Program-made: the position numbers and the translations under genes | In this document: positions 4,980-28,648 of the stretch, piece by piece | Numbering within the stretch: position 1 is the stretch's first letter | How the letters are laid out: each line of letters starts with the position of its first letter | Origin: Macrostomum lignano | Lineage: Eukaryota | DNA length: 64,000 bases | Assembly: GCA_002269645.1 (NCBI GenBank) | Contig: NIVC01002434.1 | Span: 62,001 to 126,000, forward strand | Reading direction: 5' to 3' | Notes under the pieces: generated by a model | Databases searched by the model: none | What the model was told of the DNA's origin: nothing | The model's input: the letters and a program-made list of their open reading frames with translations, nothing else

Positions 4980-6635
4980 CATCTTTAAAGAGATCTCAGA
5001 GATCCATCCCGCCACTGATCAGCCGGAGCAACAAACGCTCGACTCACTTTTTATAGCGACGCTTACTCCGCACGACAATGTGGTTCACCCGGTACCAATT
5101 CCGCCAGTGCACGCAGCTGGACGGGGAAGCCATCGACAGCTAGTACAACTGACTGTGCAACGCGGCTGAGGCCTGCCAGTTCGGAGAGCTGCGCCAGTCC
5201 CTCATCTGTTACCAGATCGTCGCCTGCTGCCGCAGCGACTCCCTCCGCAAGCGGCTGCTCTAGGTGCCCAACATCAGCCTCCCCGAGGCCCTCCAGCTGG
5301 TGAGAACAAACGAAGCATCCAGCCTGCAGGCGGCCATTATGGAGCGCTCAGCAGCCGGACCAGCTGAAGAAGTGCATGCGGCACGCGACAAGCGCCCCAC
5401 CAGGTGCCCGCCAGCCAGTCCGGCCGACAAATGCCTGCGGTGCGGAGAGCCCGGCCACCGCACATGCAACCGGGCCCAAGGCAAGCGCTGCAGCAACTGC
5501 GGAAAGCTGCACCACCTGGCGAAGACCTGCCTAAGCGGCCGCGCACGCATCAACATGGCAGAGCCTGAGCCAGAGGAACCAGCAGTGGCGCACCTAACGG
5601 AGGCGGTATTCTCCAGCCTCGACCCCAGCCGCAAAAGCGTCACCTTCAAAGCGGTCATCAACGGCTCGAACGTACCCGTCCTGATCGACAGCGGCGCTAG
5701 CTGCAACGTGCTCAGCCAGCAGACCCTTCGCCTAACGGGAGCACCCAAGCGGGCGCTTCAGCCTACACACACAAGGTTGCATCAAGGGTGTCTCAGTCAG
5801 CATCCAACAGAAGGAAGAAGCGGTGCCAGTCTGCCACCCTCCGTCTTGAGTCTCGGTGCATCTTCGAACCGCCGTGGAAAAGGAGCTGAAGAACCAGCTG
5901 GCAGCCGGCATCCTGGAGTGAGTGACGGGGCCCAGCACCTGGAGTTCACGTAATGGTATTCACGCAGGACCCGTTGGACATCAATATAAGTACGTCATCC
6001 CAGAAAAGCAGCCAATACCGACCTTCGAAGAAATCACCGACGAGATGGCATGGCTCCACCTATTTCTTCAAACTGGATGTTGCCAAAAGGCCTTCCACCA
6101 GCTCGAGGTCAGCGAGGAGTCACGGCAGCTGCTTACTTTCTCAACACCTCTAAGCCTGCTCCGCCTCAAGCGCCTTTGCATGGGGATTTACCTCAGCGTC
6201 CGAAATCCTACAGCGCGTCATGACATCCCTGAGCAGTTTGAGAGGCGAGTGGTGGGTCCATAACGACATCATCATCTTTGCCACCACCCACAAAAGAGCA
6301 CAACGAGAGGCTGCGCAACTGCACACAATCACACAGGAGTGCACAGCGGCCCTAACTTTATTTGCCTTGACGCTGCGCCAACACAACGTGACTCTGAACC
6401 CGCGCAAATGTCGCATTGCAACCCAGCAGGTCGACTTCCTGGCCATGCGCCTCTCGCGGCGGCCGGAATCCAACCGACCGAGGAAATAAAGCTGGAGGCT
6501 GTGGCCAACTTCGGTCGTGGGGAGCCAACAACAAGCCTCCGCCTTCCAGTCCATCAAGCAGTCGATCGCACACAGTCCCCGCTGGCCTTCTTCAACAAGA
6601 ACTGCGAGACCAGGCTGATCGTCGACACATGTAAC
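4980..6635 (+). pseudogene. Second decayed Ty3/Gypsy element: gag with two zinc knuckles, protease, partial RT/RNase H
   Basis: Motifs CLRCGEPGHRTC and CSNCGKLHHLAKTC (knuckles), VLIDSGASCNVL (protease), FKLDVAK/AFHQLEVSEESRQLLTFSTP and DIIIF..TLNPRKC (RT), and LAFFNKNCETRLIVD (RNase H start). Interrupted by stops and frameshifts. Confidence 0.85.
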
Positions 6636-7278
6636 ACATGGCATATGCAAAATCAGCATAAACATAGTATGTCTGTACGCAAGCAAATATTGTCTCTCTC
6701 ATCTAGCTATAGTTAAGTAGCTAGCTTTTTGGGTACACCTGGCACCAAATTTCAATCCCCGCGCTCTGCCTGGGTTTGAACTATAGCTATACTGGGTGTA
6801 CATGCAACACACACACTAGCTGAGTTAAAGAAAAAGAAATGAACGCAAACGGAGAGAGGGAGAGAAAGATAGCTAGCTAGAGAAAAAATACTGAACAACC
6901 AAAGCCCGCACGCAGGCTGAACACATTTCTTGGAATAAAAGCTACGTTCTTTCAACGCTTGGCCAGAAAAGCACACGGAAAAACAGCCACTTATTAGACT
7001 AGAGTAGGTTAGAGTTTATCAAATTTAATTAACCAGAAGTGTACATTACTAATAATAAGGCAGCTATAGCTCTCTTAGCTGTCGCAAGTTTTTGCAGTAG
7101 AAATAGACAGCTTGGTACCTTATTTTTCATAGAATTTCGATCATTCAAACTTACAATTCCAAGAAATCAAATCGACAAGCAGCTAGAGGAGCTTCTGGTG
7201 CATTAAATTGTGTTGTCGAGTCTAAATTTCCTTATGTCTTTTGCTTCAGTTGGCCAGCTTCAGCAGCAGCAAGCACCA

Positions 7279-10200
7279 ATGAGCCTTCTGGACGAGGACT
7301 TTGAAGTAATTAGTAGCGATCAGTCAATCAGTCCTTACGAGATGTCGCTTTTGCCACCCCAACAACATCCGCCGCCGCCACAACCCTCTGCTTCTGCTTC
7401 TACCAGTGAAGTTCAGAACCTGCGAGGATATAACGCAGGTATGCCTATAGAAATAGTTCAGTTCTGTTTTTTTAATTTTCATTAAAACAATGTGTATCTC
7501 TATATTAATATTTGGCAGATCAAAATAATTTTAACAAATTTAATATCTTATTATTTTTTTCTAATTTAATAATTAGAATCCAGCCTTCTAGGATTTAGAA
7601 ATTAGAAATTCACTCACTAAAGCAAATTCAGCATCTTACTTAGTGTTTGAGTCCTATCCTTATTTAGGCCTAGGTCTAGAGATCAAAATTTAGATCTCTA
7701 CTAGATCTAAATTAAATCTACTTTTTGAGATCAAATTTTAGGAATTTTTAATTAACTTTCAGATTTAGTTAGAGAATAAGGTTTATAAATCATAATTGAT
7801 TATATTATAGTTTAGGGCCTACCCTATATCATTTATATATTAAGGCTAGGGTGTAGATCTGATAATTTTTAAGACATAGGCCTAAAAATTTCATTATTTT
7901 CTTTCTAGTTCTAAGCCTAAGGATCATTAGAATAATTAGGATTTGGAATCTAGGACTAGGGATCACTATTATATTAGAATCCTAGGATTTATCTTTAGTG
8001 ATGTTTGTTAAATTCATAGGATTTGGGATTTTTGGATTTATAGATCTCTTATTAAAATCCTAGGATTGGGGATTTGAAAATCACTATTCAGAACCCTGGA
8101 ATTGGATTTTTTGGGATCACTATTAGAATCTTAAGATTGGGAACTTGGGAATCACTATCAGAATCCTATTATTGGAATTGTATATGTCCCAGGGCTCTTA
8201 TTTATTCCTTTGTCTAGCCTTACTTGCTGCCACCAAAGTTGTCGTAGGGGTGCTCCCGTACGATACAAAATCCTACCGCTGTAACCAAAGTTGTTACAAA
8301 GCTATTTCTCCTTAACAATTCTACTGGTTGTTAATTGTATTTCTACTGGTTGTTAATTGTATTTCTACTGGTAGCGCATGTACTTCTATTGATAGCGTAT
8401 GTACTTCTATTGTACTTTCTGGCCTAAGCGGTCTACTAGCACTGGCTATTCTATTCCTATATTCCTCTAAAGATATTATTCTCTCAGTCCTGGCGTTCCC
8501 GGGATCAGAGGGTCACAGCTCTAAAGCGAAATCTCTGCCCTGAGGCATTTATTCCTGCTCTGAAGCGATTCTTCTGCCCTGAGGCGAATATAGCACTTTC
8601 TTACCCTGAGGCAATTCTCGCTTTTAGCGGATTTCTGACTCTCAATGTGAGGATTTCAATCTTAGCAAATAACTAAGTCTTAAAAATACTGCGAGTAACA
8701 ATTTCTAGGTTTGCTTATCTGAAGCCAAGAGGCAGCAAACGAATACGAAACGAGTTGAAGCGAAGCGAAGCGAAGCGAAGCGATTTGCGTTTCGAGTTTA
8801 TTATTCCTGGCCCAAACTGGGCTCCTATTTATACACTTTTTCGGCATAAATTTTAACAAAATAATAATTTTCGAAAATATTTTTGCAGATCACAACGTTT
8901 AAACAAAATATTTAGTTATTTGTGCAAATTTGAATAAAAGCTTTCTAAGAAATACCGTATTCGTGCATAAAATAGTTGTTACTTCTTAGGCACTATATCA
9001 ACTTGCCTTCCCTATAGGCAATTTATGAATAATAAAAAAATTTTTTACAGTAAAAATAGAAATTTTTTGAGTGAATAAATTGCAAAGCACACACCAAAAA
9101 TAAAATGAGTGTAGTTATAAAGGCAAACTAGAAAACCATGTACAGACTACTACAAGTACTATTGGAAAACAACTCATATAAAATGGTGCATAAATTTTTA
9201 AGCAAATTTCGCAGGTGCAGATGTCAATAGTCAATGCTACAGGTGCAAAGAACAATGTCAATCTTAAATGCTACAGGTGCAAAGAACAATGTCAATAATA
9301 AATGCTACAGCTGCAAAGAACAATGTCAATAATAAATGCTACAGGTGCAAAGAACGATGTCAATAAAAAACGTACTAACAGAAAAACTTGCTTAGCGTGA
9401 AACTTATCAGTCCCTTTTCAGAAATTGCAGTTATGTGGCAAATCTCGATACTCTGGCCATCCCAGTTGCGCAAAGATCCAGTGTAGCTCGATATTCACGA
9501 GCTGGCGCTGAAATGGGCGGCTGGTGTCGACATCACCTCGGAACCGGTCTGCTGCGTACTGCAGCACGATGACAGCCTCTTCTCTCGTCAGTCGGGCTCG
9601 CAGGTGTCGCAGACTCGGCCACAGATAGGCGCGCTGCGGCAGCGCCTGATCCAGGCGGAGATGGGCGATTCTGCCCAAATAGATTCGTACGCCGTGCACC
9701 ACTCGTTCTAGTGGGACTCCGTGAATCGCGAGAAGGTTCAAAGCGGCTTCATGATGTTGGGGCGGCTGAGGCACGGGCTGCAGCGGCTGCAGTGGCTGTC
9801 TTGGCACAGGCTGATGAAGCGGTGATGGCTGACGCAGTGGCTGTTGCGGCGGTGGCTGCTGTCTCGCCGGTGCTGGCTGTCTTCTCGGCAGTGGTGGCTG
9901 CTGCTGCTGTGGCTGTCGCTGGGGCGGCGCGTGGCGCGGCCGCGGCGTCGACTGCCGAGGTGGCGGCGCTTCGAGTTGTAGAGCGCGCCGTCCTTCTTCA
10001 GCGCATGGCCTCTTGATCACGGACTTAACTGGGGCCTTGGCCTGAGCCTCCAGAATGGCTGCCCGTTTAGCTGGTACTGACTCCGCTGATGCTGCCGATC
10101 GCTTGCTCGTGCCTGGCACGGCTTTTGGCCTTGTCGGCTGCCTCAGCGGTGCGTCCTCCACCGCTGGTTGACCTGCCGCCGACGAGGCAGCTGGCGAAGT

Positions 10201-13200
10201 TTCGAGCCTAGCTGCTGATGGCGCTGGCTGTTGTTCTGGCGATGCAGACCGGGCTGCTGGCCGAACTTCTGGTTGAGCTGGCGGTTGATCTGCCGGCGCA
10301 GCTCCTGGCTGCTGCTCGGCGTTTGGCTCGGCGGCTTGTTCAGCGGCCGGTTCAGCTGGTTGCAAATCTGCCATATCGTCGTCCAGGCCTAATAGCTCTC
10401 TAATGAAATTATCTAGATGATCGTCCTCCATAAATGTTTGCTAATTACCTACAAATGAATGTTCTTAGCTAGGCGGGAGGTGATTGACGGGTCTGAGGGA
10501 GCCGCAGGGGGTTTAATTACATATCCGAAAAACTGGTCCGCATCTTCGTGTTCGCACCAGAGAGGGTTTAGCAAATTTCTAACGAGCTCGCTCATTGGCT
10601 CACACCGTTACTAAGCGTTGCTAGGATTTTCATGCGGAACGAGTTTCGAACAATACCTGCACAATTCTCTATACTCTACTGTTAGTAACGCGCATAACAT
10701 TTTTACTTAATACTGTATATGCAAATTTAATATTTTTGTATTTTTATAGATTTTATGATTTTTACTTTTTTATGAGTTTTTTATAGTCTATTTACACATT
10801 TTTACATGGATTTGGCTTCATCACTTTCGGTAGTGTGAGTAACGCCTCCGGGGAACAAAGCCTATTGCGACTGTGTTCTCTCGGGGTCTCAGATTATATT
10901 GATGTCTTTGTTCGGCTCTTTCATTCTCACCTATCTCTAATGCGTCATCTTCCTCAGCTAACTCAGTTCTTTCACTGTCTGTTGACTCATCTTCTATTTC
11001 ATTCTGCTCAATTTCCTCTTGCTCAACTTCTTCCTCAATTGGCTCGATCTCTCTAGCTCTCCATTGGATTCTTTCGTCCTCCGAACTGTCAGTTTCTACT
11101 ATTGGCTCTAAATGATTTTTCTTACTAATTTGTTGCCTTCCCTTATTTTTCGGCTCTCTCTTTTTCTGTTGTTCTCCCTGCCTTCCCCTATTTGTAGGTT
11201 CCGCCTCTTTATTTGGTTCATTCGGAAAATCTATTTGCGAGTTAGGTACTGGAGTGAGGTTGTTTCGATGTACGAGCATCTTCTCGCCAATCCTTACTCC
11301 GTCTATTTCTCGCTGTACTCGAAATACTGTTTCGGAAAGTCTCGCAAGGACTCTGAATGCTGCTCTTTTCTTGCGGTGAAATTTATGGCTTTCTTCACTG
11401 TGTAACTGCGGATTGTTAATCAATGCGAGGCATCCAACCGGTACATGCTTCGGTGGCTTGTTCTCAGCATTGTCCTCCTCTCTACGGTCCTTTACCTTCT
11501 CTAGCTTCTTTTGCACGAGTTTCTGTGCTTCTTCGAGCCTTTCAGCATGGTTTAGCACATAGCTCGGATAATCGTGATACTGCTTTGGCTTTCGAATAAT
11601 ACTGTCCATCCTAAGATCTGCCTCCCTACCAAATAGCAGGTAGTGCGGCGTGAATCCGGTGGTCTGGTTCACGCTGGTGCGCACAGCTACCAGAGCTGCG
11701 GGAATTAGCAAATCCCAGTCGGAATGATCTTTCTCTACTAGACAAGTTACTATTGACTTTATTTGTTTATTGAATCTTTCGACTAGTCCGTTACTTTGTG
11801 CGTGATACGGTGTAGTGCATGTATGCTTGATGCCATACATCCTACAAAATGCTTGGAACTGACGGCTGACGAATGTCTTGCCATTGTCAGTGTGGATCCA
11901 CTGGCATTGTCCGTATTCGCTAAAGATCCTTTCTTGTATGATCTTAATCACTGTATCCGATTTCTGGTTTCGCACTGGAAACGCAAACGGAAACCGAGTG
12001 GTGCTATCTACTACTGGTAGTACGTAGCGATGACCTCTTCGACTCTCTTTTGAGATCGGTCCAATCAGATCAATATGGATCCTATGAAACGGTTCGCATA
12101 TTGGAAAGGACTGCACTGGCGCCTTCACCTTATTTCCTGCCTTACTCTCCAAACAAGGAATACATTCCGAAATATACTTCTCTACTGCAGTTGCTAGCCC
12201 TGGTCGCCAAAATCGATCGCGTACACGCTGAAGTGTTTTATCACGACCTAGGTGACCTGCGAGAGGACTGTCATGCAACTCTCGGAATACCTCTTTCTCT
12301 ATATTCTCTGGCAACACGACCTTTCGTGTCCCGTCTTCGTCTATGGTCAATAACTCGTCTTCTAGCTTCATCTGCTTATAGAACTTTAACATCTGCTTCA
12401 ACTCTCTAGTCGCATCTTCTGGCAATTTCGGCTCTCGGATACTCTGCTCCTTCCAGGCTATCAGCGTCCTCATAGAAGGGTCGTCTTGCTGAGCTGATGT
12501 CAGCTGCTCCTTCTTAAGCGGGACGAAGAGATAGTCGGTTAGGAGTTTCCGACAAGCGGTCTCACTAACGTTTTCTTCCGCATCCTCATACACTTCTTCA
12601 TCATCAGCGAAAAAATCGCTGGCGTCCTCATACTCTTCTTCTTCATCTTCGAAATACTCTCTTGCATCTTCGTACTCTTCATCGTCTTCTACTTCTTCTC
12701 TAATTGGATCAGTCTGACAGCTCTGGTGCTTGCAGCTTGAGACATTGGTCTGACTTCGGTTTACCGTAATGGTAGGAGGTACTGGACCTATCTCAGCTTT
12801 AGTGCACTTTTCTGCCTTAGTCTCCTGATTATCTTCTAATCTTTCCGCGGGTCGTCGGGATAGTCCGTCTGCATTGGTGTGTTTAGCACCGCTGCGGTGT
12901 TCAATGTCATACTGAAATTCACTCAATCTCTCGATCCATCTACCGAGGATTCCCTGCGCTTCAGTCTGGCGAAGTAGCCATAGAATCGCGCGATGATCTG
13001 TTCTTGCCAGGAATCTCTTTCCGATGAGATAGAATCGGAAGTGTTTCATTCCGTCAACTAATGCTAGCAATTCTTTTCTCGTGATTGGATACCTCTTTTC
13101 CGATTCTTTCATGGCTCTGCTAAAGTACGCGATGGGTCTTTCGACTCCATCGGATTGTATCTGACCTAAGCAGGCTCCGATTCTATCATCACTCGCATCA

Positions 13201-16200
13201 GTGTCAAGCACCATTCGAACTCCTTCGTTGTCTGTGAACTCTGGGTAGGCTAAGACTTCGGTTGATGTCATTTTCTGCTTTAGTAGCGCAAAGGCCTCAT
13301 CATGGCTCTTAGTCCACTTCTCTTTAAAATTCTGAATTCCCTTCTTAGTTAGCTGGAAGAGCGGGTGCGCTGCTTCCGCGTAATTCTTCACGAACCTACA
13401 GTAATAGTTACATAGACCTAGGAAGCTCCTTAATTCTTTAACGTCCTTAGGCGTCGGCCATGACTGAATTGCTTCTATCTTAGCTGGATCTGTCTTAATT
13501 CCTTCTCTACCAACTATGTGTCCTAGATATTTAAGCTCTTTCTGAAATAGGTTACATTTCTTCGGTCTTAATTTTAATCCGGCTGTTACTAGTCTCTGGA
13601 ACACTTCTCGTAGGTGATCCAGGTGATCCTCAAATTTCGTTGAGTAAGTTACTATGTCGTCAATGTACGACATGGCGAATTTATGTTGAATCCCCATCAA
13701 TACTAGGTTCATTAGTCTCTGGAATGTTCCAGGTGCATTAGATAGTCCCTGCGCCATGACCTGATACTCGAACTGTCCCCTAGTTAAAGTCGAAAATGCT
13801 GTCATGAATTTATCCTCTTCCTTAATTGGTACCTGCCAATAACCTGAATTTAAGTCTAAACTACTGAAATATTGACTTCCCGTTAGATGAGAAAAAGTTT
13901 CCTGAATATTCGGCAACGGATACGGATAATAGTTAACTCGAGAGTTCAAGACTCTGAAATCACTGACAATCCTAATTGTTCCATCTTTCTTAGGCACTAT
14001 TACTAATGGCGTCGAATAAGTGCTATAGCACGGCCTTATTAAATTTTTAGCGAGCATATCGTCTAACTGTTCGTCTACTTGCTTCTGCAGATGTGGTGGT
14101 ATTCTGCGAGTAGGTATTCTGACTGGCGTCGTATCCTTTAGCGAGATTTCGTGGGTCACTAGATGAGTGAGGCCCATCTCCTGGCTTGTCTGCGAGAATG
14201 CTTCCCTATTCTCTTTCAGCAGCTCGACTACCTTTTCTTTCTGCTCTGATGATAGCTCATCTGAGATGTTAATCTCCTGAATCCATTCATCAGTATCAGC
14301 AGTTTCAGCGCATTTCGCGGATTTAACTTGTCCGGTGTCATTCTTGGTAACGAAGTACGTTAGTTCTTCGGCTTTTAATGGCTTGGCAATGCCTACCATT
14401 GCTGATTTCCTAATTACTACGTCGTTGTTCTGCCTATTAATCACTTCTACCACACCAGTTCCATCACTCATCGTTAATAAAGTTGGAACCATATCCAGTG
14501 TGTCATCTTTTACTGAGATATGTCCTTTAGTGGTCTCAATCATCATTGGCGTGCCGAAGTTCATTTCTGCTCGTTTAGCTAGTTTGACTGGTATTCTTAA
14601 AGCACTATTAGCTGGCACAACTACCTTGTCGTGACAGTAGACTCGGCACACTCGTACCGGCAATTTAGTAAACTGCATCGGAATGCAAACTCCGGTTTTT
14701 TAAATCATCATCCCTTTGTCAAAGCTCATACTCTCGCAAAAGTTCATAAAGAAATTCATTCCTAGGATATCATCACACTCATGGTTGCACAGCAGGAAGT
14801 CGGTCACAATTTCTACTTCTCCGAACATTATCTTTATTGTCACTTCTCCTTCGATTCGCACAATTGATCCATCGAATGTGGTCACTCTTTGATCAGATGA
14901 CCTGATCTCTTGTTCTCTACATACTCTTCTCCAAGTAATTTTACTTAGGAAGTTACGACCGGCTCCTGTGTCTAACAGAAAGCGAATATTCTGCTTGCGG
15001 ATCTTTCCGTCAATGACTGCTTCTCGGCCTTTCTTCTCTGTGCCGGCATCTAAACTTGTCTCTTCTTCTGCACTTTCATTCAGCTTGACTTACTCTTCTG
15101 GCTTCGGAGTACTTTTCTTGGGTAAGCAATCAGGTGCACGCGTAGTATTTACATTTGGTACTGTATGTGCGTTCGCATGTTTTTTGTTGGGTTTTCTAAA
15201 CTTATTATAATTTTCGCATGATTTGTGCTTGTACTGCTTATTAACTTTGTATGCATTATTTACAAATTCAGAGGCCTGAATTTTGCTCTGGATTTCGCTA
15301 GAGGGACGTGGCCTCGTTATTCGGCCCTCGCTTCTCAGTTTCCCTGATTATTCGGGCGGTTCTGCATCTTCGGAGCGTTCTGCTTGGCACTCCTGCACTG
15401 CTTTGCAATGTGGCCGATCTTCCCGCAGTTGTAGCAAGTCTGCGGCTGTTGTCTCGGCTGACCCTGGTTCGGGTGCTGCTGCCGGGCGAACATTTGCTGT
15501 CGCGCCTGCGCTCCATTGCCATACTGTGGCGGAACGGGCTGCGGCTGCTGCGGCTGGTATCTCTGTGGATACTGCCTGGCTGCCTGAGCGTACGAATAAT
15601 TCTGCGAAAACTGCTGTTGATTATTCTGCATCTTCTCCTCTCTTAGCTCCTGCAAAGCTCTCTTCTGCTGTTCAATCTCGAACTTCTGCTTCCTAATGAT
15701 CTCTTTCAGTCTTTCTTGTTCTTCCTCGCTCTTAGCTACTCTCATGCCTGAATTCCTGCGTGACATGTTCCAGGCTGCTTCCATTCTCCTCAGCATTCTT
15801 CTGGCTTCCTGCAGATTAGCTGGCTGAGCGAAGATCAGTTTCTCGCGGGTTTCCGGTGGAACTCTCACACCCTTGATGAACTGTTCCACGATCTCCTCTT
15901 CCCGCTGTTCCACAGTCATGTTTGGGAAGGCTCGCGAAGCTAGCTCAATTAGACAATCGGTGTACGATTCTACTAACTCATTTCTGCCTTGCATTCGGCC
16001 TCTAAATTCTTCCCTAAACTCTGCTGAACTGCCAATTCTGCCAAAGCGTTCTACAAGTCTTTCTTTAAATTCTTCGTACTCCAGATCATCTGGGAGGTTC
16101 AGACGCTGCACTGCTGCGAATGCAGTAGCCAGGTCGAGGTTCGCGAGAAGCTCTTGCTTCCGGTGATCTTCTTCGATACCCTCAGCTTCACAGCGCTGGT

Positions 16201-19200
16201 CGAAGGCAGTCAGCCAGATCCTGATATCTTGACCTGGCGTGAATTTCTGGATTTTCACATGCCTTTGTGGTCCTAACTCTAACCTGTTTCTTAGCTCTTC
16301 AGCTAGCATCGCAATCGCATCATTTGCGTTGGCCATCTCTGATCTTGTCAGGTTCTGCTATTTCTCTAGTCTTCTAAGGTTTTTGCCGTTTCTCTGATCT
16401 AAATCTCGCCGTTTATCTGATCTAAATCTCGCCGTTTCTCTGATCCTTTACGCTGCCACCAAAAGCTGTCCCAGGGCTCTTATTTATTCCTTTGTCTAGC
16501 CTTACTTGCTGCCACCAAAGTTATCGTAGGGGTGCTCCCGTACGATACAAAATCCTACCGCTGTAACCAAAGTTGTTACAAAGCTATTTCTCCTTAACAA
16601 TTCTACTGGTTGTTAATTGTATTTCTACTGGTTGTTAATTGTATTTCTACTGGTAGCGCATGTACTTCTATTGATAGCGTATGTACTTCTATTGTACTTT
16701 CTGGCCTGAGCGGTCTACTAGCACTGGCTATTCTATTCCTATATTCCTCTAAAGATATTATTCTCTCAGTCCTGGCGTTCCCGGGATCAGAGGGTCACAG
16801 CTCTAAAGCGAAATCTCTGCCCTGAGGCGTTTATTCCTGCTCTGAAGCGATTCTTCTGCCCTGAGGCGAATATAGCACTTTCCTACCCTGAGGCAATTCT
16901 CGCTTTTAGCAGATTTCTGACTCTCAATGTGAGGATTTCAATCTTAGCAAATAACTAAGTCTTAAAAATACTGCGAGTAACAATTTCTAGGTTTGCTTAT
17001 CTGAAGCCAAGAGGCAGCAAACGAATACGAAACGAGTTGAAGCGAAGCGAAGCGATTCGCGTTTCGAGTTTATTATTCCTGGCCCAAACTGGGCTCCTAT
17101 TTATACACTTTTTCGGCGTAAATTTTAACAAAATAATAATTTTCGAAAATATTTTTGCAGATCACAACGTTTAAACAAAATATTTAGTTTTTCGTGCAAA
17201 TTTGAATAAAAGCTTTCTAAGAAATACCGTATTCGTGCATAAAATAGTTGTTACTTCTTAGGCACTATATCATATAAATCACTATTAGAATCCCAAGATT
17301 AGGAATTTAGGGATTACTATTAGAATCCCAAGGTTAAGGATTTCTAATTTGGGGATCACTATCAGAATCTTAGGGTTGGGAATTTGGTAATCATTATTAG
17401 AATCATAAGGTTAAGGATTTCTGATTTGGGGATCACTATCAAAATCCCAAAGTTAAAGATTTCCAATTTGGGGATCACTATCAGAATCCTAGTATTGGAG
17501 ATTTGTTGATTACTATTATAGAATCCTAGGTTTGGGGATTTGGATCACTATCAGAATCCTAAGGTTAAAGATTTCTAATTTGGGGATCACTATCAGAATC
17601 CTAGGATTAGGGATTTGGGGATCACTATCAGAACCCCACGATTGGGAATTTGGAAATCACTATCAGAATCCCAGGATTGGGGATTTAGGGATCACAATAA
17701 CAATCCCAGGATTTAGGATTTGAGGATCACAATTGAAATCCCAAGATTGGGGAAAACAATCTGTTTGAGAAGTACAGTTTAGATTCCCAGGGTTTGAGAT
17801 ATAAAGCTGCGATTTAAAAATGGGTCAACCTATATTTGATAATCTAATCCACTTTCAGATATCCTAGTTGCCAATCCTTCAGCCAATGAGCTGGCTCTGC
17901 AGCAGCTGGTTGAAACAATAAAACAACGCTTCGACAGTCTGCATGGGGGATTGGCCAATAACAATCAGGTATTGGAGGGCTTGACTGCCAAGTTGCAGTG
18001 CCAGCAATTATCAGCAAATAGCTCTGCTACTAGAGGCAGTCCTTCTGGTCAGGATGCTACAGATGGTCAGGTGAATATCATGTTTATTGGTAGTAATAAA
18101 TGTTATGCAGTACATGCATATGTTGTTTCATGATCTTTAAGTCACGATTTAGTAATCCTTCATGCGCAACACCCGGCCAAGCTGGCAAAATGCCCACCCG
18201 AAATTTGGACGTAGTAGTAATTAGGTGACGAGGTATTTAGCCTTTACTATACAGTCATATTTACTCTTGCCGTTTACCCAAAACGTTAATTTTGCTTACG
18301 CAGGTAAGTCGCATTTTTGGTCAAAAAGTAAGTGTCACGTCCGGTTTAAATCAGAGGGTTAGGGTTCCGCATGTATGGTGACAATCATGGTAAAATAATG
18401 TTCAAACCACGGTTTATAGTAATGTACTGATGTCTGATCATGTTTTAACCATGTCTCCACTGTAAAAATGAACAGTGCAAACCCAAGTAGCTTCTCAAAC
18501 GCATTAAACAGGACTCTCAGGAACTGCGCTCCGAGCTAGCAAAGCTGTGCAATCGCCAAGAAGAGTGGCAGCAGACCATTGACGACTACGCCAAGCTGAA
18601 GAGCCAGTACGGCCTGCTGATCAACACTAGAGAGAGGTTGGAAGAGGAGCGGGACGAACTGCTCCGGCGGATACAGCAACAGCAACAGGACAAAAATAAA
18701 CAGACTGAGTCAGAGGCTGCTGCAGCTTTCCAAACCGATGATCAGATGAGGAAGAGAGTCTGCGAGCTGGAGTCTTTGCTGCAAGAGAAGATTGATGAGT
18801 GAGCCGCAATCTCTTGTCTCCCCTCTCCTGTCTCCCCTCTCTTGTCTCCCCTCTCCTGTCTCCCCTCTCCTGCCCCCTCTCTTGTCTACCCTCTCCTGTC
18901 TCCCCCTCTCCTGTCTACCCTCTCCTGTCTCCCCCTGTCCTGTCTCCCCCTCCTATTTCCCCCCTCCTGTCTTCCCTCTCCTGTCTCCCCCTCCTATCTC
19001 CCCTCTACACTCTCCCCTTTACACTCTCCTCTCCGGTCGCCCCCTCTTTAGTCTCCTCATATCCATTTCTCGTGTCTCCGGTCTGCTTACACTTACCTTA
19101 GCATGAGCAGTGAGCAGGCGAACACTTGTTCACGAAAGCTCAAATTGTTTTGCTCCGCAGAATCGCCAGCCTGTCAGACGCAAATTGTACTTTTAGAAAC

Positions 19201-23650: not shown

Positions 23651-24604
23651 TGGTCAGGTGCAGGCGGGTAGCCAGGATTCACGTCAGGGGGGCGGGGGAG
23701 GGACAGACACATCAATCCATCTCCGATGTTACCGATGGAAGCAGAATACAAAGGCAGTAAAAAATTCCCCTTTCAAGGGGGACAATGGTCATGGACATGT
23801 CCGAGTAGGCCCTACCTGCGTGGCTGACTCGGTGAAAAGTCAGATTTTTTCTTCGCTGTTTTCTAATTGCATAGGCCTACAGGCTACATTTTTTGCTTGC
23901 AGCAAAGAATTTTCAAATTGAAATAGAAAGTGTGGGTTTAGGCCCTATCTTTTATAACTGTCTGTGGGACAAGGCCAGCCTACAAGGATGGACTCAGATC
24001 AGAATCTCGCCAGGCTACTCACTATTGCCTATGTAATTAGGGGGGGGGGGCTAACTGATATTTGTCAGAATGCCAAATAGATAGGCCTATCATATAATAT
24101 ATAAAAATATTAGGCTATAGTTAGGCTAGGGGTTGTCAGGTTGATGGTCATTTTGTTTGCTCTGCTACTAGTGCCAGTTTGTCTGCTCTGCTAGCTACTC
24201 TTTTTGTCTGCAAAAAATACTTAATAATACAGTAATTTTCTCTGTCACTAATTATTAAATACAATGACAATTTTATGATATTAGAATGAAATAATAGGCC
24301 TATGCCGCCTAGATAACAAAGTCATTTTATAATAATAGTGATCTAATGACAATATTGTTATTAGATGTATTACTGAATCTACATTTTGTCAAAACAACAA
24401 TATGTCATATACTATTCAAATTATTGGGAATTAGTATTCAAATTAACGAAAATAGCAATTAATTAGGATTATATTGTATATGGGATAAAACAAGTTACAA
24501 ATTATTAAATAAGATTAAATTAATAGCAATACATAGATTTAAGGGAAAGGGTCCAATTTGCTATATTGCCCATCTGCTAGCTACTATGCAATGCAATTAA
24601 AACA

Positions 24605-26875
24605 CTAAGCAAATGATTGCTATGCACACAGTTAAAACACTAGGCCTAGGTAGATGGTTGCTATGCACACAATTAGAACACTAGGTAGATGGTTGCTATG
24701 CACACAATTAAAACACTAGGTAGATGGTTGCTATGCACACAATTAAAACACTAGGTAGATTGTTGCTATGCCCACAATTAAAACACTAGGTAGATGGTTG
24801 CTATGCACACAATTAAAACACTAGGTAGATGGTTGCTATGCCCACAATTAAAACACTAGGTAGATGGTTGTTATGTACAAAATTAAAACACTAGGTAGAT
24901 TGTTGCTATGCATACAATTAAAACACTAAGCAGATGGTTGCTATGCACACAATTAGAACACTAGGTAGATGGTTGCTATGCACACAATTAAAACACTAGG
25001 TAGATGGTTGCTATGCACACAATTAAAACACTAGGTAGATGGTTGCTATGCCCACAATTAAAACACTAGGTAGATGGTTGTTATGTACAAAATTAAAACA
25101 CTAGGTAGATTGTTGCTATGCACACAATTAAAACACTAGATAGATGGTTGCTATGCACACAATTAAAACACTAGGTAGATGGTTGCTATGCATACAATTA
25201 AAACACTAGGTAGATGGTTGTTATGTACAAAATTAAAACACTAGGTAGATTGTTGCTATGCACACAATTAAAACACTAGATAGATGGTTGCTATGCACAC
25301 AATTAAAACACTAGGTAGATGGTTGCTATGCACACAATTAAAACACTAGATAGATGGTTGCTATGCACACAATTAAAACACTAGGTAGATGGTTGCTATG
25401 CACACAATTAAAACACTAGGTAGATGGTTGCTATGCACACAATTAAAACACTAGGTAGATGGTTGCTATGCCCACAATTAAAACACTAGGTAGATGGTTG
25501 TTATGTACAAAATTAAAACACTAGGTAGATTGTTGCTATGCACACAATTAAAACACTAGATAGATGGTTGCTATGCACACAATTAAAACACTAGGTAGAT
25601 GGTTGCTATGCATACAATTAAAACACTAGGTAGATGGTTGTTATGTACAAAATTAAAACACTAGGTAGATTGTTGCTATGCACACAATTAAAACACTAGA
25701 TAGATGGTTGCTATGCACACAATTAAAACACTAGGTAGATGGTTGCTATGCACACAATTAAAACACTAGATAGATGGTTGCTATGCACACAATTAAAACA
25801 CTAGGTAGATGGTTGCTATGCACACAATTAAAACACTAGGTAGATGGTTGCTATGCACACAATTAAAACACTAGGTAGATGGTTGCTATGCACACAATTA
25901 AAACACTAGGTAGATGGTTGCTATGCACACAATTAAAACACTAGGTAGATGGTTGCTATGCACACAATTAAAACACTAGGTAGATGGTTGCTATGCACAC
26001 AATTAAAACACTAGGTAGATGGTTGCTATGCACACAATTAAAACACTAGGTAGATGGTTGCTATGCACACAATTAAAACACTAGGTAGATGGTTGCTATG
26101 CACACAATTAAAACACTAGGTAGATGGTTGCTATGTACACAATTAAAACACTAGGTAGATAGTTGCTATGCACACAATTATAGGTAGATGGTTGCTATGC
26201 ACACAATTAAAACACTAGGTAGATGGTTGCTATGCACACAATTAAAACACTAGGTAGATGGTTGCTATGCACACAATTAAAACACTAGGTAGATGGTTGC
26301 TATGCACACAATTAAAACACTAGGTAGATGGTTGCTATGCACACAATTAAAACACTAGGTAGATGGTTGCTATGCACACAATTAAAACACTAGGTAGATG
26401 GTTGCTATGCACACAATTAAAACACTAGGTAGATGGTTGCTATGCACACAATTAAAACACTAGGTAGATGGTTGCTATGCACACAATTAAAACACTAGGC
26501 AGATGGCTGCTATGCACACAATTAAAACACTAGGTAGATGGTTGCTATGCACACAATTAAAACACTAGGTAGATGGTTGCTATGCACACAATTAAAACAC
26601 TAGGTAGATGGTTGCTATGCACACAATTAAAACACTAGGTAGATGGTTGCTATGCACACAATTAAAACACTAGGCAGATGGCTGCTATGCACACAATTAA
26701 AACACTAGGTAGATGGTTGCTATGTACACAATTAAAACACTAGGTAGATGGTTGCTATGCACACAATTAAAACACTAGGTAGATGGTTGCTATGCACACA
26801 ATTAAAACACTAGGTAGGTAGATGGTTGCTATGCACACAATTAAAACACTAGGCAGATGGCTGCTATGCATACAA
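24605..26875. repeat. 35-bp satellite (ctaggtagatggttgctatgcacacaattaaaaca), about 65 copies, with a 420-bp higher-order duplication
   Basis: The unit is visible directly. 24961-25380 and 25381-25800 share the same variant pattern. Confidence 0.97.
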
Positions 26876-28648
26876 GTTCTGTTTTTATATGCATCCCAAA
26901 ATTTAATATGCCAATTATATATATTGATTGAGACTTGAGAGCCTGAGGCTTAGAACTTGGTCCCACCTACTGTCTTAGCAAGTTTATATGCCAAGCTATA
27001 TACCAAGGGATATGTTATGCTAGGCCCCATTTATATTCCAACAATATATGCTAGATCCTTTCATATATAAGAATTTTCTAGATTAGATGTATCTATCTTT
27101 AATCTACTATCTTCAATCTAGTATGTGCCAAACACAATTGCATATATTTAGCCTATTATTGTATATAACAATTGCAGATATAGTAGGTTTTAGCCTTTGT
27201 ACCTGGGTAGTCCCTAAAGATTAAGAAATAAATCTAGCACTTAGTATCTCCATTGTTGTGGCTAAAATTAATGAAATAATTTTCATTATTTTGAAATAAA
27301 TTATAGCTTCTAATCTCTCAACATGTTTATACACAATAATATGTATTTTCTATATAAAAAATGAAAAAAATTGAACTTGATAGGGTGGGGGTGCATGCCC
27401 TGTGCCTGTGCGCCTCCTTCCTAAATCTGCCATTGGTCTTAGCATTCCCCCCATTTGCCTAAATATATAATATACATCTCCTAGCAATACCCCCTGTCAA
27501 CCTTGACATCTTAGCAATTCCTCCTATAGGCTTTGACATCTTAGCAATTCCTCTATAAGTTTTTATATCTTAACAATTCTCAAATAAATCTTATATGTTC
27601 AACAGGATACTTCTTTTATATAAAGATGATTCATTTTTTATATGACTCTTCTAGTTTCAAATTAGCCTTAGTATAAATGGCTTAGAATAAAAAATAACAA
27701 AAAATTAGTTCCATATAAATGACCTGATATAACAAGAGATTTAGTATATAGCATTTATATTTACTATTGGCATGTGTTTTATATATAAAAGTATTATGTG
27801 CAAAGAATATTGACTATTTTACCAGTATACTTAAATTAGGTTAAAAAGTTTTTTAAATTAAATGAATTGTTGATTTCATAATGTAAAGAAGTTTTAATGC
27901 AATTTTGGCATTATAGCCATGCCATTATAGTTTATTACAGTTTGTTACTAATTGGTTTAAAATGGTCAGGATTTAATATAGCAAAACTTCAATAAGGCTC
28001 TATGCATCTTACATATATTGACAATAAGGTATATTTTTGTTTTTGATGTCAATATTTAAAAATAAAAAATTTAAACTGTCAAATATAAGAAAAGCCAATG
28101 TACTTAGTTATGATTGTTTGTTTGTTTAATCAATAAAATTAACTAGACATTTGTGTTGTAGATATATACATCTATTATCTTATCTATATGAAAATTATAT
28201 AAATGAGAGTGTCTTGCTATGCCAAGTAACATAGTAGAGTATGAGTCAGATTAGAATTGCATATGTGGTCCTAAACTGAGCCTTTAATACCTTGTACATT
28301 GGACAATTTGTCTCCTGTATTAAATAGGTATTATCTGGTCAAAATATGTTATTATATAAAATGTCTTTTATAGATAAAGTGACTTTAGGAGCTTAAAGTG
28401 TAAGGTAAAATATCCTATACCTTTTCATTTTATTTTAACTTAGCCTAAGTTTTAATTGTTAAAGTGTTTTGTTTAACTATGATTTAAAAATTACATATAA
28501 GCTACTAATATAGACAGTCAATTCCATTAAAGTTGCAAATGTTTATTTTTAATTACTTAAAGCTTTTTTTGAAATGTATGATTAAATTTTGTTTAATCTA
28601 TTGGAAACAAAAAACAACAAATTTCAGAGTATCTATTCTAGACTAATT

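What the first reader, a model, noticed from the sequence alone, without database searches (positions are those of the whole stretch)
9418..10431. Gypsy element carries an intact non-envelope ORF3 in the env position
Seen: a 337-aa ATG ORF lies between pol and the PPT on the sense strand. It is visibly much more GC-rich than pol, and a plausible splice acceptor sits 17 nt upstream of the ATG. It has an acidic N-terminal patch (MEDDHLDNFIRELLGLDDD), a long Pro/Ala/Gln disordered linker and a compact about 110-aa C-terminal domain (HHEAALNLLAIHG..FAQLGWPEY). There is no signal peptide, furin site or transmembrane helix. Known: env genes of errantiviruses occupy this position and are expressed from spliced subgenomic RNA. 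Inference: this is a different accessory protein, for example a captured gene, transactivator or anti-silencing factor. It remains intact although pol has two stops.
Basis: partly seen in the sequence, partly recalled or inferred. Interest (0 to 1): 0.72.

Follow-up and report, generated by a model that had tools for sequence, protein, structure and literature searches.

The report
Flatworm retrotransposon's swappable regulator gene
A branch of jumping genes in a flatworm carries, where a viral coat gene would sit, an extra conserved gene that matched no catalogued protein family and that elements exchange as a module; it likely works as the element's own gene-activating switch, which is untested.

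Summary
Confirmed: a 337-aa non-envelope ORF (10431-9418, minus) lies between pol and the PPT of a 9.1-kb Ty3/Gypsy LTR element. It is a real gene family. Its C-terminal domain has 148 matches in this genome at 26-87% identity, dN/dS 0.04-0.26 in 15 unsaturated pairs, and a confident five-helix model (pLDDT 90) with no Pfam or PDB match. Homologues are Macrostomum lignano proteins plus one unnamed relative. (1) The proposed splice acceptor is not conserved; a CCAAT/TATA-type internal promoter is the better candidate. (2) ORF3, 3'UTR and U3 are swapped as a cassette onto nearly identical gag-pol cores. (3) A non-autonomous satellite lineage keeps only a mini-gag and ORF3, both conserved. Intactness in this one copy proves nothing. 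Best mechanism (about 40%): a nuclear activator working like foamy-virus Tas, through an acidic N-terminal helix and the folded domain. Rivals are an anti-silencing factor and an RNA-export factor. No function was shown. The scan had not found this family on other DNA; it had noted other non-env cargo genes in this genome.

The parts
9418..10431 (-). ORF3, 337 aa, non-env accessory gene
   Evidence: family; selection
9421..9759 (-). Folded C-terminal domain (residues 225-337), predicted five-helix bundle, no family or fold match
   Evidence: pLDDT about 90
10393..10422 (-). Acidic amphipathic N-terminal helix (residues 4-13), candidate activation or docking motif
   Evidence: (net -7 to -11 in the first 30 residues of 20 of 20 members); role inferred
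9952..10158 (-). Conserved short blocks inside the disordered linker (about residues 92-160), including basic KR clusters (candidate nuclear localisation signal) and a short helix at 121-131
   Evidence: role inferred
10511..10600 (-). Candidate internal promoter: CCAAT at 10598, a conserved block around 10539, and a TATA-position element that is degenerate in this copy (10526-10511)
   Evidence: no start site mapped
10449..10450 (-).
9187..9390 (-). 34-nt tandem repeat (5 copies) in the ORF3 3' UTR; not shared by the other ORF3 types viewed
9001..9013 (-). Polypurine tract
8185..9000 (-). 3' LTR; U3 with TATA at 8833-8827
10821..15347 (-). pol frame (PR, RT, RNase H, IN), -1 to gag, two internal stops
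15335..16336 (-). gag with CCHC zinc knuckle
16451..16461 (-). Primer-binding-site-like sequence (tRNA identity not tested)
16467..17272 (-). 5' LTR; TATA at 17105-17099
8181..8184 (.). Target-site duplication TATA (partner at 17273-17276)

Best explanation
ORF3 is a conserved, soluble accessory gene of a flatworm Ty3/Gypsy clade, exchanged between elements together with the LTR promoter region, and it likely encodes a nuclear activator of the element's own transcription, probably made from an internal promoter. Shown: the gene, its selection, its non-env anatomy, the cassette exchange and its retention in non-autonomous elements. Inferred, step by step: (1) a CCAAT/TATA promoter between pol and ORF3 makes a short ORF3 mRNA independently of the LTR; (2) basic clusters take the protein into the nucleus; (3) the helical domain docks on element DNA or chromatin, directly or through a host factor; (4) the acidic N-terminal helix recruits co-activators and raises LTR-driven genomic RNA, as foamy-virus Tas does.
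For: Gene under selection: dN/dS 0.04-0.26 in 15 of 23 chosen pairs, with synonymous sites saturated in the other 8. Activator-like anatomy: acidic N-terminus (net -7 to -11), basic disordered middle (+6 to +20) and a folded, net-basic domain (+1 to +10) in 20 of 20 members, none with a transmembrane-like stretch. Promoter-like upstream DNA: TATA 65-125 nt before the ATG in 7 of 17 representatives (shuffle mean 0.6, max 4 of 200) and CCAAT in 8 of 17 (mean 1.1, max 5); a shared block at -104 to -135 in 14 of 20. The same block, with a TATA, precedes a stand-alone domain-only ORF with no gag or pol nearby (L070). Cassette with U3: identity to L032 and L033 is 94-100% per 250-nt bin across gag-pol, then 44-70% over ORF3, UTR and U3; RT dS 0.03-0.06 where ORF3 dS exceeds 3 or is saturated. 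Non-autonomous elements, which need transcription but borrow enzymes, keep ORF3 whole in 13 of 16. Precedent: Tas is 209-308 aa, has an acidic activation domain, is made from an internal TATA promoter and diverges along with its U3 targets (PMC3798896 section 3.2); internal promoters after pol exist in Tor elements (PMC4402516 passages).
Against: No DNA-binding fold was recognised, and no binding or activity was tested. The motifs shared among U3s are not enriched at the internal promoter (3 of 17, shuffle max 4; the second motif 0 of 17), unlike Tas elements that occur at both promoters. Those U3 motifs are clade-wide (23 of 31 and 11 of 31) and look like host factor sites (Fox-, STAT-, E2F-like labels recalled, not tested), so the LTR may not need an element-encoded activator. 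Co-inheritance with U3 is also expected from adjacency alone. The TATA is degenerate in the window's own subgroup and absent in the L059/L060/L062 group; the 17 sequences are related, so the shuffle counts overstate independence. The annotated homologue P0001 starts at an ATG upstream of the TATA position, so its transcript model begins further upstream. Acidic amphipathic helices also serve as generic docking motifs. An automatic filter over all 325 pairs kept 29 with median dN/dS 0.55, max 0.96; the top pair has dN above 1, where this estimator is unreliable.
Confidence: 0.4

Rival explanations
1. ORF3 is a counter-defence protein: it binds or displaces a host silencing component (chromatin or small-RNA pathway), and its diversification and swapping reflect an arms race.
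For: Many deeply diverged ORF3 types ride on nearly identical gag-pol cores. Short conserved motifs in a disordered linker suit host-protein binding. Retention in non-autonomous elements fits a local benefit. VANC proteins diversify with tandem-repeat targets (PMC5735166 abstract), and this copy has a 34-nt tandem repeat behind ORF3.
Against: The domain shows purifying, not diversifying, selection in the pairs tested (no site-level test run). The tandem repeat is not a shared feature of the other UTRs viewed. No chromatin-reader or RNA-binding family matched.
Confidence: 0.25
2. ORF3 is a post-transcriptional factor like Rev or Cer1 CERV that exports or stabilises unspliced genomic RNA.
For: CERV shows that a Ty3/Gypsy element can encode such a protein (PMC10309623 abstract and one section). 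ORF3 has basic clusters and a leucine-rich N-terminal helix; both autonomous and satellite elements need RNA export.
Against: The export-signal-like leucine spacing of the window copy is not kept across members, while acidity is. No conserved splice acceptor near ORF3 suggests a retained intron. No CERV-like domain order.
Confidence: 0.13
3. ORF3 acts outside transcription, as a particle, trafficking or cell-state factor (for example helping entry to the germ line or changing stem-cell cycling).
For: It occupies the env slot, and the satellite also keeps a selected mini-Gag, which hints at particle-level functions. The domain is a generic helical bundle like many adaptors (best Z 7.3).
Against: No signal peptide, membrane segment or myristoylation-type start (start residues); conserved basic clusters favour the nucleus (inference).
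Confidence: 0.17
4. ORF3 is a decayed env, a captured host fragment or a chance GC-rich frame without function.
For: High GC lengthens frames; this ORF3 type is single-copy and its nearest DNA relatives are broken.
Against: dN/dS far below 1, a conserved start helix and stop position across members as distant as 25% identity; no env features; no host homologue.
Confidence: 0.03

Closest known systems
Foamy virus Tas (Bel1) and its internal promoter (PMC3798896 section 3.2)
   Same: 3' position next to the LTR, about 300 aa, acidic segment plus a separate domain, candidate internal TATA promoter, high divergence alongside U3.
   Different: No sequence or fold link found; acidic segment is N-terminal; host element is a Ty3/Gypsy retrotransposon without env; no shared element between the two promoters; no activity shown.
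Non-env ORF3s of bdelloid LTR retrotransposons (GDSL esterase, DEDDy exonuclease; PMC5408684 abstract)
   Same: Third ORF in the env slot of an invertebrate Ty3/Gypsy element, modular behaviour.
   Different: Those are recognisable captured enzymes; this protein matches no family and is mostly disordered.
Cer1 CERV (PMC10309623)
   Same: Lineage-restricted accessory protein of a Ty3/Gypsy element with novel predicted domains.
   Different: CERV is spliced, shares exons with gag and has three domains with a Cys-rich ring; ORF3 is one exon after pol.
VANC anti-silencing proteins of VANDAL transposons (PMC5735166 abstract)
   Same: Element-encoded protein that diversifies between related elements together with non-coding DNA.
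   Different: DNA transposons in plants acting on DNA methylation; no homology found; no target shown here.
Errantivirus env (PMC13524379 passages) and Tor env with internal promoter (PMC4402516 passages)
   Same: Genomic slot; internal promoter after pol in Tor3b/4b.
   Different: No signal peptide, transmembrane domain, furin site or Cys-rich ectodomain; the flatworm errantiviruses in that paper are GAG-ENV-POL.

Membership tests
Ty3/Gypsy LTR retrotransposon | Two LTRs, TSD, PPT, gag, and pol in the order PR-RT-RH-IN | tested here: met
Ty3/Gypsy named clade (Mag, CsRN1, Gmr1/Osvaldo, Mdg3) | RT placement against reference elements | not tested
   No named references in hand; nearest outside RT-RH hits are mostly unnamed at about 45-50% identity
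Errantivirus env | Signal peptide and transmembrane domain | tested here: not met
   maximum 19-residue hydropathy 0.45-1.11 in 20 members
Errantivirus env | Furin site and Cys-rich F- or gB-type ectodomain | tested here: not met
   no furin site and 2 Cys in the window protein; 1-4 Cys in 20 members; two-thirds disordered
Errantivirus env | Spliced subgenomic mRNA | tested here: inconclusive
   acceptor not conserved; only assembled contigs were available
Foamy virus Tas | Sequence or structural homology | tested here: inconclusive
   no Pfam, profile or viral-structure match; absence from lists does not exclude remote kinship
Foamy virus Tas | Internal promoter upstream of the gene | tested here: inconclusive
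   CCAAT and TATA enriched over shuffles; no start site mapped
Foamy virus Tas | Acidic activation domain | not testable with these tools
   acidic helix present in 20 of 20; activity untested
Foamy virus Tas | Binds response elements in both the internal promoter and U3 | tested here: inconclusive
   the two U3 motifs tried are not enriched at the internal promoter; binding untested
Foamy virus Tas | Encoded by a spumaretrovirus with env | tested here: not met
   Ty3/Gypsy-type element without env
VANC-type anti-silencing protein | Sequence-specific loss of silencing marks on own element | not testable with these tools
   needs chromatin data
CERV/Rev-type export factor | Required for export of unspliced genomic RNA | not testable with these tools
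   needs knockdown and RNA localisation
Captured enzyme ORF3 (GDSL, DEDDy) or J-domain cargo | Recognisable Pfam domain | tested here: not met
   0 families at E 0.1 in 20 of 20 members

The most novel reading that the evidence does not exclude
This Ty3/Gypsy clade has independently become a 'complex' retroelement. It encodes its own promoter-specific activator of a new fold from an internal promoter; activator and U3 form matched, exchangeable regulatory cassettes; a satellite lineage with a specialised mini-Gag captures each cassette; and the host may have kept a domain-only copy (L070) as a dominant-negative brake.
Probability: 0.2. Interest if true: 0.87.

Novelty: new variant of a known kind. 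Interest (0 to 1): 0.64.

Why it matters
Extra ORFs of animal LTR retrotransposons are mostly env or recognisable captured enzymes, and few have a known function. This one is a protein family with no catalogued match, kept by selection across a whole clade, moved as a module with the promoter region and retained by non-autonomous satellites. If it is an activator, it is a retrotransposon parallel to Tas or Tax and shows how complex retroviral regulation can arise without an envelope. If it counters silencing, it is an animal parallel to VANC. The host has transgenesis and an LTR reporter has been used in it (PMC12801592 passages), so both readings are directly testable.

Tried and rejected
Family and fold searches: Pfam gave only Gp37 at E 0.018-0.14, below cut-off, and nothing for 20 members. 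PDB sequence profile: one hit at E 5.7. Foldseek PDB and viral libraries: 0 hits at E 0.001. Wide structural alignment: best Z 7.3 (Gle1 CTD, rmsd 3.6, 113 aligned), tied with KaiA and MUN, within the range of generic helical bundles. This shows neither a known fold nor a new one. ESM Atlas: no usable hit. Word-seeded protein search: 0 of 103 candidates. Profile search of 1.84 billion representatives: 8 hits, 5 true homologues and 3 weak bacterial repeat matches that I rejected. Metagenome contigs: none of 217 pattern matches confirmed; viral contigs were not scanned. RNA: no holder on record as RNA; contigs of guessed-RNA runs cover ORF3 but show no joint to 10449 or to the L041 ORF3, which cannot show absence, start sites or level. 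The U3 tree was mostly unresolved (2 of 11 branches supported), so ORF3-U3 co-evolution was not shown. Domestication of L070: fewer substitutions in the ORF than in flanks at p 0.14, 0.024 and 0.39 for three pairs, unresolved. No dimer prediction was obtained. Literature: 8 searches listed no description of this ORF3; four gene identifiers of homologues occur in 0 papers and not in the supplements of PMC12801592 or PMC5730564 that were held. An earlier classification of this host's LTR elements cited by PMC12801592 was not read, and subscription papers, Repbase entries and bioRxiv supplements were not searchable; any of these may mention the ORF.
Full report
The element. The window holds a 9.1-kb LTR retrotransposon on the minus strand, 17272-8185, with a TATA target-site duplication and LTRs of 806 and 816 nt that differ at 9 of 806 aligned sites. 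It encodes gag with a zinc knuckle and a -1 pol frame with PR, RT, RNase H and integrase; pol has two internal stops. ORF3 runs from 10431 to 9418, 337 aa, GC 0.62 against 0.44 for pol. Homologues of ORF3 and pol are labelled Macrostomum lignano hypothetical proteins. GenBank models of that species were derived from transcript assemblies (PMC5730564 passages), so homologous regions are transcribed in some form, possibly as part of genomic RNA.

A gene family, not a chance frame. The last 113 residues have 148 matches in G000 at 26-87% identity, a lower bound; 20 of the best 30 sit in stop-free frames of 287 codons or more. A distant member found 151 matches, many new. I fetched 54 ten-kb loci, chosen for diversity and mostly for open frames, so not a random sample: 25 have RT upstream on the same strand, 21 have gag or pol pieces without RT, 8 have neither. 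For the domain, 15 of 23 chosen pairs give dN/dS 0.04-0.26 and 8 are saturated at synonymous sites; an automatic filter over all 325 pairs kept 29 with median 0.55 and a maximum of 0.96 from a pair with dN above 1. The window's own ORF3 type is single-copy, and its nearest DNA relatives (69-77%) are decayed. Outside this species' records the only homologue found is an unnamed Logan pair, P0002/P0009, with the same motif order and at most 45% identity to scored G000 copies, so probably from a related organism (inference).

Anatomy. Twenty full-length members share an acidic N-terminal helix, short conserved blocks around window residues 92-160 with basic clusters, length-variable low-complexity linkers and the C-terminal domain. 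AlphaFold2 gives the domain five helices at pLDDT 90 and pTM 0.82 and leaves the rest disordered except helices 4-13 and 121-131. No member has a transmembrane-like stretch; the protein is not env. No family or fold was recognised.

Expression. The AG at 10449 is specific to this copy. Conserved instead are a block 104-135 nt before the ATG in 14 of 20 members and a TATA at -72 to -111 in 11 of 20; in 17 representatives TATA (7) and CCAAT (8) exceed all 200 shuffles. The sequences are related, the TATA is degenerate in the window's subgroup, and one annotated homologue starts upstream of it, so the internal promoter is likely but unmapped. Tor3b/4b elements use such a promoter for env (PMC4402516 passages).

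Cassette exchange. Against L032 and L033 the window element is 94-100% identical per 250-nt bin through gag-pol, 90-92% in the bin before ORF3, and 44-70% across ORF3, its UTR and U3; L043 diverges from the pol tail onward. RT dS among these is 0.03-0.06 while ORF3 dS is above 3 or saturated, and the RT and ORF3 trees differ in branch lengths and grouping (no formal topology test). Old ORF3-U3 modules therefore sit on one young core, most simply through template switching (inference).

Satellites. Sixteen loci form a non-autonomous lineage: LTR, a Gag-like ORF of 191-197 aa with an altered Cys/His end (whole in 12 of 16), an unrelated non-coding spacer of about 0.8-1.4 kb, usually an open pol tail, ORF3 (whole in 13 of 16) and LTR, with LTR pairs mostly 99-100% identical. 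The core is shared among satellites with different ORF3 types, while several share ORF3 and LTR with an autonomous partner (L044/L045 with L043, L042 with L041, L068 with L047, L037 with L040). The mini-Gag is under purifying selection (for example pN 0.021, pS 0.213 for L052-L053). Recent capture from helpers could by itself explain why satellite ORF3s are whole.

Mechanism. An acidic helix, basic clusters, a folded domain, a probable internal TATA promoter and linkage to U3 together resemble foamy-virus Tas (PMC3798896 section 3.2). I commit to a nuclear activator of the element's transcription at 0.40. Against it: no DNA-binding fold, no motif shared between U3 and the internal promoter, clade-wide U3 motifs that resemble host factor sites (labels recalled), and linkage explained by adjacency. 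Counter-silencing (0.25), a particle or cell-state role (0.17) and RNA export (0.13) remain open; activation and counter-silencing are not exclusive. It may work like Tas but is not a member of that family.

Literature seen. PMC12801592: passages, one section, supplementary table 1, term search of five supplements; the word ORF does not occur in its main text. PMC5408684 and PMC5735166: abstracts. PMC10309623: abstract and one section. PMC3798896: passages and part 1 of section 3.2. PMC4402516, PMC7828637, PMC5730564, PMC13524379: passages. Eight searches listed no description of this ORF3. The scan's own notes hold no look-alike sequence but report J-domain and double-RING cargo genes in other elements of this genome, unchecked here.

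Verdict. Observation confirmed; interpretation partly supported. Non-env third ORFs are a known kind, but this family, its cassette exchange and its satellite lineage are a new variant. Interest 0.64.

Noticed in passing
L034-L039, L042, L044-L046, L048, L049, L052, L053, L067, L068: Non-autonomous satellite lineage with a selected mini-Gag (about 35-42% identical to the helper Gag over its first 150 residues) and an open, usually ATG-less pol tail of 130-170 codons; how or whether the tail is translated is unexplained.
   Followed up: partly
L070:7273-7818, also L083 and L084: Domain-only ORF (118-119 aa) behind the internal-promoter block and a TATA, no gag, pol or LTR found in 10 kb, in three copies with shared flanks and annotated as a gene; possible host-retained derivative, selection test unresolved.
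   Followed up: partly
window 8827-9000 and U3 of 31 relatives: U3s share a TTTGTTT-type motif (23 of 31) often 27-46 nt before the TATA, and a TTC-N3-GAA-type motif (11 of 31), both far above shuffles; resemblance to Fox and STAT sites is recalled.
   Followed up: partly
window 16451-16570 and 8230-8290: Two further primer-binding-site-like sequences lie inside the LTR itself, besides the one after the 5' LTR.
   Followed up: no
window about 10880-10900: The integrase tail has a YNLRPR stretch, recalled as resembling the chromatin-binding motif of foamy virus Gag; kept in satellite tails.
   Followed up: no
window 7975-8181 and 17276-17757: The element is inserted into a degenerate repeat array of about 35 nt that continues on both sides.
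   Followed up: no
window about 5260-6720 (+): A second, decayed Gypsy-like element with zinc-knuckle, protease and RT-like pieces by eye.
   Followed up: no
L036 about 5600-6950 (element orientation): An insertion with RNase H-like coding pieces interrupts ORF3 in a satellite whose LTRs are 99% identical.
   Followed up: no
window 24507-26900 and from 42420: Long 35-nt tandem array (63 overlapping copies listed) and a large simple-repeat array.
   Followed up: no
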